Part shown: in pieces, positions 10,138 through 10,413 of the stretch
How positions within the stretch are numbered: the first letter of the stretch is position 1
Layout of the letters: every line of letters starts with the position of its first letter
Virus record (IMG/VR): IMGVR_UViG_3300016673_000467
Span: 1 to 63,134 of that record
Origin: a virus
Lineage: Duplodnaviria > Caudoviricetes
Strand: one strand, 5' to 3'
DNA length: 63,134 bases
Notes under the pieces: model-generated
Told to the model about the DNA's origin: nothing
The model's database searches: none
The model's input: the letters and a program-made list of their open reading frames with translations, nothing else
Position numbers and translations under genes: made by a program

Positions 10138-10215
10138 GGGGAATCCTTGCCGCGATGCACGCAGCGCAAAGAGGGGGGGAAATATGAGTTGCTAAACATT
10201 CTTATTCGTATTTAA

Positions 10216-10238
10216 GATATGTTATTACGTATCAACTC
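10216..10238 (+). promoter_or_regulatory. Putative Zur box upstream of bL36-B
   Basis: GATATGTTATT-A-CGTATCAACTC vs GAAATGTTATA-N-TATAACATTTC (9/11 and 6/11). Confidence 0.5.
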
Positions 10239-10257
10239 ACCGCAAGGAGCCTCACCG

Positions 10258-10413
10258 ATGAAAGTGCTGTCCTCACTCAAAGAAGCGAAAAATCGTCACC
10301 GTGACTGCCAGATCGTTATGCGCCGCGGCCGTATTTATGTGATCTGCAAAACCAATCCGAAATTCAAGGCTCGGCAGGGCGGTGCAAAAAACAAGAACAA
10401 AGGAAAAGGCTGA
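10258..10413 (+). CDS. ykgO: Type B (Zn-independent) 50S ribosomal protein L36
   Basis: [50 protein letters not shown]; lacks the full CxxC...CxxxxxH zinc set. Confidence 0.93.

What the first reader, a model, noticed from the sequence alone, without database searches (positions are those of the whole stretch)
10200..10413. Prophage-encoded Zn-independent ribosomal protein bL36-B with a Zur-like box
Seen: a complete type B L36 with a strong RBS, inserted antisense inside the recombination region without the usual bL31-B partner, preceded by a partial Zur palindrome and ending in a Lys-rich tail ([11 protein letters not shown]). Established: type B L36 paralogues replace Zn-binding L36 under zinc starvation and are Zur-repressed; phage-borne ribosomal proteins are uncommon. 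Inference: a lysogenic conversion factor for zinc-limited growth or ribosome remodelling.
Basis: partly seen in the sequence, partly recalled or inferred. Interest (0 to 1): 0.7.

Follow-up and report, generated by a model that had tools for sequence, protein, structure and literature searches.

The report
Prophage-borne zinc-free ribosomal protein L36
A Pseudomonas prophage carries a small self-contained gene for the zinc-independent form of ribosomal protein L36, with a host-type metal-starvation operator in its promoter, and so brings this protein to bacteria that mostly lack it.

Summary
Window 10258-10413 (+) encodes a 51-aa type B (C-) bL36 (NCBIfam NF002021, 89.2 bits, cut-off 70). It lies antisense between phage genes in the early-left recombination region of a complete lambdoid siphovirus prophage. 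No L31 gene is in the record.

It is a roughly 240-bp moron cassette (promoter, operator, Shine-Dalgarno, CDS) at a conserved junction. Twenty-one other IMG/VR proviruses carry it; 30 relatives of the left neighbour gene have nothing at that junction.

Selection is strongly purifying (dN/dS 0.03; variable sites by codon position 5/3/38).

All 22 provirus promoters match the published P. aeruginosa Zur consensus 14 of 14, inside an 18-bp imperfect palindrome beside the predicted -10. The same core precedes a FUR-family/folE2 operon and lies in a TonB-receptor/ZnuA locus in Pseudomonas genomes.

Only 8 of 151 species genomes of that genus hold any L36-B. The nearest cellular copies are stand-alone and 90-94% identical, and they carry the Lys-rich tail, so tail and solo state are not phage inventions.

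Caveat: the nearest studied relative (Pf-5 PFL_3806) was reported induced by iron limitation with a putative Fur site. Expression and ribosome entry are untested here. Most likely it is a Zur-type metal-starvation conversion gene. Interest is moderate.

The parts
10176..10425 (+). L36-B moron cassette: promoter, operator, SD and CDS up to the stop of the converging neighbour
   Evidence: The left edge is where relatives without the cassette run straight into the leader hairpin. Contigs of other contexts also break off there, at 10176 and 10413. Similarity to the chromosomal copies starts at about 10185.
10189..10194 (+). -35-like hexamer TTGCTA (TTGATA in 20 of the 21 other provirus promoters)
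   Evidence: Seen in the alignment of 22 provirus and 10 chromosomal promoters. The generic promoter scan found no site in the window copy, which scores 8 of 12. This assignment is inferred.
10213..10218 (+). -10-like hexamer TAAGAT, 18 nt after the -35-like hexamer
   Evidence: Near-invariant. Inferred; no transcription start was mapped.
10216..10233 (+). 18-bp imperfect palindrome GATATGTTATTACGTATC (7 of 9 pairs) overlapping the -10: the candidate Zur operator
   Evidence: The sequence is. The core GATA.GT.AT.AC.T is invariant in 22 provirus promoters. The two central W positions are TT in 16 and AA in 16 of 32 promoters and are never mixed.
10221..10234 (+). 14 of 14 match to the published P. 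aeruginosa Zur consensus
   Evidence: Found. The same place matches in 22 of 22 provirus promoters. The consensus was taken from PMC10393844.
10244..10249 (+). Shine-Dalgarno AAGGAG, 8 nt before the ATG
10258..10413 (+). CDS of type B (C-) ribosomal protein bL36, 51 aa
   Evidence: Family scores are. dN/dS is 0.028. Aligned to host rpmJ, the four zinc-ligand positions read H, C, C, F in place of C, C, C, H.
10138..10175 (-). Conserved hairpin plus RBS leader of the leftward recombination-module gene: the junction at which the cassette sits
   Evidence: Conserved in proviruses with and without the cassette.
8974..10137 (-). Left neighbour, phage protein of phrog_1376 (function unknown), followed by RecT (8001-8966) and a YqaJ exonuclease (7237-8004)
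10426..10875 (-). Right neighbour, phage protein of phrog_4801, converging on the L36-B stop codon
   Evidence: The same family flanks the cassette in L002.

Best explanation
A temperate, lambda-like Pseudomonas phage carries a roughly 240-bp moron cassette captured from a Pseudomonas chromosome. The cassette encodes a functional zinc-independent (type B, C-) ribosomal protein bL36. It has its own sigma-70-type promoter, and the -10 region is overlapped by a Fur-family operator of the Zur type.

Proposed mechanism: in a lysogen with enough zinc, host Zur sits on the 18-bp palindrome and keeps the gene off. When zinc runs short, Zur leaves, L36-B is made independently of the phage's own (opposite-strand) early-left operon, and it takes the place of zinc-binding L36 in new 50S subunits. 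This spares zinc and keeps translation going in hosts that mostly have no L36-B of their own.

Shown here: the gene, its family, its prophage position, its cassette nature, purifying selection, the conserved operator, the link of that operator core to zinc genes, and the rarity of L36-B in the host genus.

Inferred: the promoter and start site, Zur as the binding protein, expression in lysogens, ribosome entry, and any fitness benefit.
For: Family: NF002021 89.2 bits against a cut-off of 70. The zinc-ligand set is incomplete, with H, C, C, F at the positions of rpmJ's C, C, C, H. Type B relatives are present in solved ribosome structures (24yw_6, E 2.6e-17; 6i7v_C5 'L36 2', E 9.1e-17).

Prophage position: phage families lie on both sides and the structural module is complete.

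Cassette: 21 further proviruses carry it at 92-96% protein identity. In L002 it sits between phrog_4801 and a recombination module of another type (exonuclease plus Gam-like; L014 has the same exonuclease family on its left). All 30 of 30 relatives of the phrog_1376 gene lack it within the upstream flank held (up to 2.5 kb; much less in two short loci). Many of them show the same leader hairpin directly after the preceding ORF.

Selection: 21 copies, 20 distinct DNA sequences, 7 distinct proteins; pS 0.31, pN 0.011, dN/dS 0.028; variable sites 5/3/38 by codon position.

Operator: 22 of 22 provirus promoters match the Zur consensus 14 of 14 at the same place. Every substitution inside the box stays within the consensus. 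Of 10 chromosomal promoters, 6 match 14 of 14 and 4 match 13 of 14.

Link to zinc genes: the 12-mer core was searched in 5 Pseudomonas genomes and found at 9 places, against 0 for the reversed control. Five places are the L36-B promoters themselves. One more faces a TonB receptor beside ZnuA and ABC-3 genes. One precedes a FUR-family gene plus folE2. One precedes a DUF4198 gene. One lies in an integrase/KfrA element.

Host need: full-length L36-B was found in 8 of 151 species genomes, and none has two copies. [quoted passage not shown]
Against: No expression data of any use were obtained. The RNA-library material consisted of contigs that also cover the promoter, so it does not show transcription.

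The nearest studied relative, Pf-5 PFL_3806, was reported induced by iron limitation with a putative Fur site. A named P. protegens member of the chromosomal 90% cluster is 49 aa and differs from the window protein at 4 of 49 positions.

The Zur consensus is loose (4 matches in the window against 2.2 expected). The 22 promoters are homologous, so they are not independent observations.

The window's own -35-like hexamer is weaker than in its relatives, and the generic scan calls no promoter. No intrinsic terminator follows the gene.

The idea that C- paralogues act by freeing zinc is itself described as controversial, and C+ genes stay expressed under zinc limitation (PMC10393844 and PMC8531726, passages).
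Confidence: 0.55

Rival explanations
1. Same protein, other signal: the cassette is controlled by Fur and iron limitation, alone or together with Zur. It would then serve an iron-starvation or general metal-starvation response rather than zinc sparing.
For: Pf-5 PFL_3806 (C- L36) was reported up log2 3.2 and 2.67 in iron-deprived media, with a putative Fur site upstream (PMC3377617, passages). A P. protegens L36-B lies in the same 90% cluster as the chromosomal copies. Chromosomal promoters match the classical 19-bp Fur consensus (recalled) at 11-14 of 19 over the -35 and spacer region. Some exceed shuffles: L025 14 of 19 with 0 of 300 shuffles reaching it, L154 2 of 300, L037 4 of 300, L151 7 of 300.
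Against: The 22 provirus promoters reach only 11-12 of 19, no better than shuffles (37 to 161 of 300 reach it). The best-conserved element is the box at the -10, whose core goes with zinc genes rather than iron genes. I could not read the Pf-5 zinc-limitation study.
Confidence: 0.25
2. The gene serves the phage during lytic growth. L36-B would keep ribosome assembly and translation going, or remodel ribosomes, in metal-starved infected cells. Host fitness in lysogeny would not be the point.
For: Virus-encoded ribosomal proteins are thought to replace host versions during infection (PMC6375957, abstract and passages). A type B L36 also occurs on a 328-kb IMG/VR contig (L023, NF002021 79.1 bits) and in two 735-kb uncultured phage records, which are not obviously temperate.
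Against: The gene lies antisense to the early-left operon, has a promoter of cellular type shared with chromosomal copies, and carries a host-repressor-type operator. These are the hallmarks of a moron expressed from the prophage. bL36 is not among the exchangeable proteins named in the main text of PMC6375957 (0 mentions).
Confidence: 0.12
3. Passenger or artefact: host DNA wrongly included in the provirus call, or a decaying gene without function.
For: Provirus boundaries in databases can include host flanks. Two variants have altered C-termini (L020 has an extra NK; L021 has a replaced tail).
Against: Phage families lie on both sides, and the gene sits 10 kb inside a 63-kb record. It is conserved at the same junction in mosaic relatives. 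dN/dS is 0.028 at pS 0.31.
Confidence: 0.03
4. The cassette acts mainly through convergent transcription. Its metal-controlled promoter fires into the early-left operon (towards phrog_4801 and upstream genes), coupling phage gene expression or induction to metal status. The protein would be secondary.
For: The CDS stop is 12 nt from the stop of the converging gene, and no terminator was found.
Against: Strong purifying selection on the protein. The same cassette works as an ordinary chromosomal gene elsewhere.
Confidence: 0.05

Closest known systems
Chromosomal stand-alone type B L36 of some Pseudomonas species, including P. protegens Pf-5 PFL_3806
   Same: Protein identity is 90-94% where the gene is complete. 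The promoter architecture is the same (TTGATAA ... TTCTTATT ... GATATGTTATTAC). The Lys-rich GGAKN(K/R)NKG tail is shared. No adjacent L31-B gene.
   Different: The phage copies form their own cluster (97/88 for 20 of 22 rows; L014 and L022 fall outside it). Most carry K21M and G42S, many R35K, and all have two extra residues (KG). The right arm of the palindrome (TATC) is present only in phage copies. The Fur-like match is weaker in phage copies. The published response of the Pf-5 gene is to iron.
E. coli YkgO (bL36B) and P. aeruginosa RpmJ2 (PA3600), Zur-repressed C- paralogues
   Same: Same NCBIfam family. The protein aligns over residues 1-44 with the 'L36 2' chain of a solved ribosome (6i7v_C5, E 9.1e-17). 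A Zur-type box lies in the promoter. Literature: PMC8531726 and PMC10393844, passages.
   Different: PA3600 lies in one operon with the L31-B gene PA3601; that E. coli ykgO likewise follows ykgM is recalled. Here the gene is solo, on a prophage, and has a longer basic tail.
Virus-encoded ribosomal proteins (bS21, bL12, bL31, bL33 and others; Mizuno et al. 2019, PMC6375957)
   Same: A core ribosomal protein gene in a bona fide viral genome, probably acquired from a host.
   Different: L36 is not mentioned in that paper's main text (0 occurrences; supplements closed). Those proteins are mostly from lytic or aquatic viruses and have no host metal operator. This one is a temperate-phage moron.
Type B L36 on very large phage contigs (L023, 328 kb; LR756501 and LR756503, 735 kb)
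   Same: Type B L36 on viral records.
   Different: Only 60-63% identical, 40 aa, no Lys tail. The upstream sequence is unrelated. These look like an independent acquisition.

Membership tests
Type B (C-) ribosomal protein bL36 (NCBIfam NF002021; Pfam PF00444) | Profile score above the curated cut-off | tested here: met
   NF002021 89.2 bits against 70; PF00444 66.6 bits against 26.1.
Type B (C-) ribosomal protein bL36 (NCBIfam NF002021; Pfam PF00444) | Incomplete zinc-ribbon ligand set compared with C+ L36 (C, C, C, H) | tested here: met
   Aligned to host rpmJ from four genomes, the four positions read H14, C17, C30, F36, and there is a 3-residue insert. Zinc independence itself was not measured.
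Type B (C-) ribosomal protein bL36 (NCBIfam NF002021; Pfam PF00444) | Incorporation into the 50S subunit | not testable with these tools
   Only by likeness: type B relatives are chains of solved ribosomes (24yw_6, 6i7v_C5).
Zur regulon | Zur box in the promoter region | tested here: met
   14 of 14 to GWWAYWNNNTWHCR at 10221-10234, and in 22 of 22 provirus promoters. The consensus is loose (4 matches found against 2.2 expected in the window).
Zur regulon | The same box stands before recognised zinc-starvation genes of the host group | tested here: inconclusive
   Outside the L36-B promoters, the 12-mer core was found at 4 places in 5 genomes: TonB receptor beside ZnuA/ABC-3, FUR-family gene plus folE2, DUF4198, and an integrase/KfrA element. 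The control gave 0. The sample is small, and the motif was derived from the L36-B promoters themselves.
Zur regulon | Zinc- and Zur-dependent repression | not testable with these tools
   No usable expression data.
Fur regulon | Fur box in the promoter | tested here: not met
   Provirus promoters score 11-12 of 19, not above shuffles. Chromosomal relatives score 11-14 of 19, some significantly. The consensus was typed from recall.
Phage moron / lysogenic conversion gene | Inside a prophage, between phage genes, present or absent at a conserved junction | tested here: met
Phage moron / lysogenic conversion gene | Own promoter and own terminator | tested here: inconclusive
   A conserved promoter-like module is present, but the generic scan calls no promoter in the window copy. 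No terminator-like hairpin with a T run follows the stop codon.
Phage moron / lysogenic conversion gene | Expressed from the repressed prophage and changes the host phenotype | not testable with these tools
   -
Virus-encoded ribosomal proteins | Ribosomal protein homologue encoded by a viral genome with hallmark genes | tested here: met

The most novel reading that the evidence does not exclude
Temperate phages are a main vehicle that spreads zinc-independent L36 through fluorescens-type Pseudomonas, a group that otherwise mostly lacks it. The phage copy is wired to the host's Zur (perhaps also Fur), with a completed 18-bp palindrome. Lysogeny would then give a measurable growth advantage under metal starvation by changing ribosome composition. 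This would be a case of lysogenic conversion acting on the ribosome itself, and the first bL36 among phage-borne ribosomal proteins.
Probability: 0.35. Interest if true: 0.65.

Novelty: new member of a known kind. Interest (0 to 1): 0.5.

Why it matters
Zinc-free ribosomal paralogues are a textbook zinc-starvation response, but whether they confer fitness is still debated (PMC10393844, passages).

This offers a natural gain-of-function system. One small cassette on a prophage adds L36-B to hosts that lack it, so lysogen, non-lysogen and cassette-deletion strains can be compared directly.

It also extends the list of phage-borne ribosomal proteins to bL36. It is an example of a phage moron that keeps a host metal-repressor operator.

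I found no paper describing a phage-borne L36. The proteins are, however, already named 'type B 50S ribosomal protein L36' in public genome annotation.

Tried and rejected
Named phage records: tblastn against 50,697 phage records found only two 735-kb uncultured phage records, at 60% identity. No cultured phage with this gene turned up. PHROGs has no family for it (0 families).

Transcription evidence: one search for sequencing runs and one laying of four runs. All were contigs.
- RNA-library contigs of X9, X12 and X13 cover about 10128-10413 with flanks unlike the window.
- They include the promoter region.
- They therefore show that the cassette occurs in other contexts in wastewater and marine samples. 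They do not show that it is transcribed.
- No habitat claim is made.

Terminator: the scan and the fold downstream of the stop codon gave nothing convincing (z -1.57).

Rfam: 0 hits for the whole window at gathering thresholds. Only chance-level hits in 11850-12350.

Tail as a phage novelty: rejected. GGAKN(K/R)N tails occur in Pseudomonas, Thauera, Variovorax, Achromobacter, Ottowia and Lautropia copies.

Missing L31-B as a sign of phage capture: rejected. In four Pseudomonas genomes with a solo L36-B, the L31-B gene lies on another contig.

Origin from beta-proteobacteria: the 153-column DNA tree has too few supported branches to decide and is unrooted. I used 27 of the 80 genome-contig loci, chosen by hand (the closest 14 plus representatives), plus 5 loci, L155, the window and 20 proviruses.

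Second Zur-consensus site at 1124-1138: no homologue of that region exists among the loci held, so its conservation could not be judged.

Contexts of the chromosomal copies: tblastn with window ORFs found phage-like neighbours only for L155 (G120) and L025 (G002). Other kinds of mobile element around the rest are not excluded.

Unavailable material:
- Supplements of papers are closed. Supplementary Table 2 of PMC6375957 and the Fur-site tables of PMC3377617 could bear on the novelty and Fur claims.
- The Pf-5 zinc-limitation paper is not held.

Unpublished genome: G102 is one of the 151 genomes. It counts only as one of the genomes with rpmJ alone, and the figure 8 of 151 rests on it to that extent.

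Full report
WHAT IS THERE

Window 10258-10413 (+) is a 51-codon ORF (MKVLSS ... [11 protein letters not shown]). AAGGAG lies 8 nt upstream of the ATG. The ORF scores 66.6 bits on Pfam Ribosomal_L36. It scores 89.2 bits on NCBIfam NF002021, 'type B 50S ribosomal protein L36', against a cut-off of 70.

Aligned with the canonical rpmJ of four Pseudomonas genomes, the four zinc-ligand positions C, C, C, H read H, C, C, F. There is also a three-residue insert. That is the C- pattern.

Type B relatives are chains of solved ribosomes: 24yw_6, and 6i7v_C5 named 'L36 2'. Entry into 50S is therefore plausible by likeness, but it was not tested.

WHERE IT IS

The window is an entire IMG/VR provirus record with a CheckV completeness estimate of 100.
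- Structural genes: large terminase, portal, head morphogenesis, major head, tape measure, tail fibre J and tail fibres.
- Control and replication genes: a CI-like repressor, Ant and an O-like replication protein.
- Leftward early operon: phrog_6742, phrog_4801, [L36-B on the other strand], phrog_1376, RecT, YqaJ.

The gene is thus truly inside the phage and antisense to its neighbours. It is the only L36 in the record, and no L31 is present.

IT IS A CASSETTE

A scan of IMG/VR found 22 distinct loci (48 pattern matches, 23 confirmed). Twenty-one carry the gene at 92-96% protein identity. One, on a 328-kb contig, is only 63% identical.

The 75 nt upstream are conserved with the gene. The flanking genes are mosaic. 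In L002 the cassette again follows a phrog_4801 gene, but it precedes an exonuclease plus Gam-like module in place of phrog_1376/RecT; L014 has the same exonuclease family on its left.

Thirty proviruses found through the phrog_1376 protein all lack L36-B in the upstream flank held (30 of 30). That flank is 2.5 kb in most, but only 96 to about 1,700 nt in three short loci. In many of them the preceding ORF ends about 20-30 nt before a conserved hairpin-plus-RBS leader. In the window that leader is 10138-10175, and the cassette begins right there.

Contigs from other contexts also break away from the window at 10176 and at 10413.

These two provirus samples were drawn with exact peptide words. 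The 21-versus-30 split is therefore not a frequency.

IT IS UNDER SELECTION

I compared 21 copies of 153 nt: the window, 19 proviruses and L155. L020 (159 nt) and L021 (replaced C-terminus) were left out.
- 20 DNA sequences are distinct, but only 7 proteins.
- Variable sites fall 5/3/38 by codon position.
- pS is 0.31, pN is 0.011, and dN/dS is 0.028.

WHERE IT CAME FROM

The closest cellular genes are solo L36-B genes of a few Pseudomonas species. Protein identity is 94, 94, 92 and 91% over the aligned stretch in L024-L027. In the genome survey it is 89-94% in five further copies and 79% in two.

These share the promoter module and the Lys-rich tail. The tail also occurs in Thauera, Variovorax, Achromobacter, Ottowia and Lautropia copies.

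In a DNA tree, 20 of the 22 phage rows form a starred cluster (97/88). L014 and L022 fall outside it. The chromosomal Pseudomonas copies lie in a neighbouring cluster. Deeper branches are unsupported and the tree is unrooted.

The cellular genes stand in ordinary chromosomal places:
- G053: followed by a TonB-dependent receptor.
- G133: divergent from a TonB receptor, near ZnuA and ABC-3 genes.
- G026: next to metE and a TonB receptor.
- G120: the copy is on a prophage contig like the window.
- G002: the copy lies beside phage tail genes.

The most economical reading is one capture of gene plus promoter by a phage, followed by spread within a mosaic phage family. The direction of transfer is inferred, not proven.

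HOW RARE L36-B IS IN THE HOSTS

I searched 151 species genomes drawn from the genus of G002 (named Pseudomonas morbosilactucae in its record).
- 147 gave a match.
- Only 8 gave a full-length L36-B: G002, G004, G026, G045, G053, G099, G120, G133.
- Two more gave short, stop-containing matches: G085 and G008.
- The rest matched only through rpmJ, at 39-47% identity.
- Four had no match.
- Six matches were not listed.
- None of the 8 has two L36-B genes.
- G102 is unpublished and counts among the non-carriers.

The stops reported inside the G099 and G045 matches come from the alignment running past the stop of an intact 49-aa ORF.

The phage-type protein is common in public data. The commonest variant (as in L002) was seen on 253 contigs, and the window's exact protein on 76. 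Sources name these proteins type B L36 of P. fluorescens, P. synxantha, P. simiae and others.

THE OPERATOR

The promoter module reads TTGATA (TTGCTA in the window), then 18 nt, then TAAGAT. It runs directly into GATATGTTATTACGTATC (10216-10233), an 18-bp inverted repeat with 7 of 9 pairs.

The published P. aeruginosa Zur consensus (GWWAYWNNNTWHCR, cited to Pederick et al. 2015 in PMC10393844) matches 10221-10234 exactly. It matches the same place in all 22 provirus promoters examined. Of the 10 chromosomal promoters, 6 match exactly and 4 match at 13 of 14, partly in another register.

The review describes the Zur box as a 17-bp palindrome that often overlaps the -10.

The consensus alone is weak: 4 matches in the window against 2.2 expected. 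Three further points add weight.

1. Within the box, every difference among copies stays inside the consensus.

2. The two central W positions are TT in 16 promoters and AA in 16, and never mixed. At least 4 changes of state are needed on the CDS tree. GTTATTAC and GTAATAAC are reverse complements. This is what a symmetric dimer would tolerate, although recombination between two alleles could give the same pattern.

3. The 12-mer core occurs at 9 places in 5 Pseudomonas genomes, against 0 for the reversed control.
   - 5 are the L36-B promoters themselves.
   - 1 is a second site in the G133 intergenic region, facing the TonB receptor.
   - 1 precedes a FUR-family gene followed by folE2, a classical zinc-independent paralogue.
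   - 1 precedes a DUF4198 gene.
   - 1 lies between an integrase-family gene and a KfrA gene.

Independent L31-B promoters of four genomes carry a related box, TGTTAYTGTATAAC.

THE IRON CAVEAT

PMC3377617 (passages) reports three things about P. protegens Pf-5:
- The annotated C- L36 gene, PFL_3806, was among the genes most strongly induced by iron limitation (log2 3.2 and 2.67).
- It has a putative Fur site upstream.
- The reason was left open.

A P. protegens L36-B of 49 aa (UniProt label RL36_PSEF5) lies in the same 90% cluster as the chromosomal copies. It differs from the window protein at 4 of 49 positions. That this protein is PFL_3806 is my inference.

Against the classical Fur consensus (recalled), chromosomal promoters score 11-14 of 19 over the -35 and spacer region, some well above shuffles. 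The provirus promoters score only 11-12 of 19, which is not above shuffles.

Fur control, alone or together with Zur, therefore stays a live rival for the family, though it is less well supported for the phage copies.

VERDICT

The thing is a metal-starvation moron: a captured, selected type B L36 gene with a host Fur-family operator (most likely Zur), carried by a family of temperate Pseudomonas phages into hosts that mostly lack such a gene.

The gene family and its regulation are known. The vehicle is new to the literature I could search: no paper on a phage-borne L36, and no mention of L36 in the main text of PMC6375957 (supplements closed).

I rate it a new member of a known kind, of moderate interest, and cheaply testable.

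Noticed in passing
window 1124-1138: A second match to the Zur consensus, this one on both strands (GTTATTTTGTTACA). It lies about 25 nt before the likely start (ATG 1162) of a low-GC ORF (1162-1866, phrog_9267, function unknown). It could be a second metal-controlled moron or chance.
   Followed up: partly
window 11681-11866 (-): The prophage encodes a CsrA/RsmA-family global regulator homologue (PF02599, 84 bits).
   Followed up: no
window 11999-12149: A roughly 150-nt non-coding stretch next to the CsrA gene is 92-96% identical to stretches in 17 named Pseudomonas phage records (P. 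aeruginosa, P. syringae and Antarctic Pseudomonas phages). These otherwise share nothing with this 6-kb query. There was no Rfam match.
   Followed up: partly
window 10216-10233 and the same place in L002-L022, L024-L027, L037, L150-L155: The two central W positions of the operator core are TT in 16 and AA in 16 of 32 promoters, never TA or AT, with at least 4 switches on the gene tree. The centre flips between GTTATTAC and its reverse complement.
   Followed up: partly
window 10138-10175 (-) and the same place in L158-L181, L186, L187: A conserved hairpin plus RBS leader precedes the first gene of the recombination module, even where the genes on either side differ. It looks like a mosaic junction or a regulatory leader of the early-left operon.
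   Followed up: partly
L021:5001-5210 and cluster member P0004: A variant L36-B whose Lys tail is replaced by an unrelated extension (73 aa in P0004). It was seen on 29 contigs and is annotated '50S ribosomal protein L36 2' in P. fluorescens. L020 has an extra NK repeat.
   Followed up: no
L192 (G026:C3:216454-219465): A short FUR-family gene (133 aa) followed by folE2 sits directly behind an ACGTTATAACAT box. This is a candidate zinc-regulated operon with its own Fur-family regulator.
   Followed up: partly
window 12923-13201 and 13517-14617: An antitoxin-like small ORF (phrog_2268) and a 366-aa regulator with weaker matches to repressor and metalloprotease families (phrog_2439, phrog_87). 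They lie between the CsrA region and the CI-like repressor.
   Followed up: no
L023 (IMG/VR contig of 328 kb) 5001-5120: A separate 40-aa type B L36 (NF002021 79.1 bits) sits on a very large viral contig with unrelated flanks. Two 735-kb uncultured phage records also match at 60%.
   Followed up: partly
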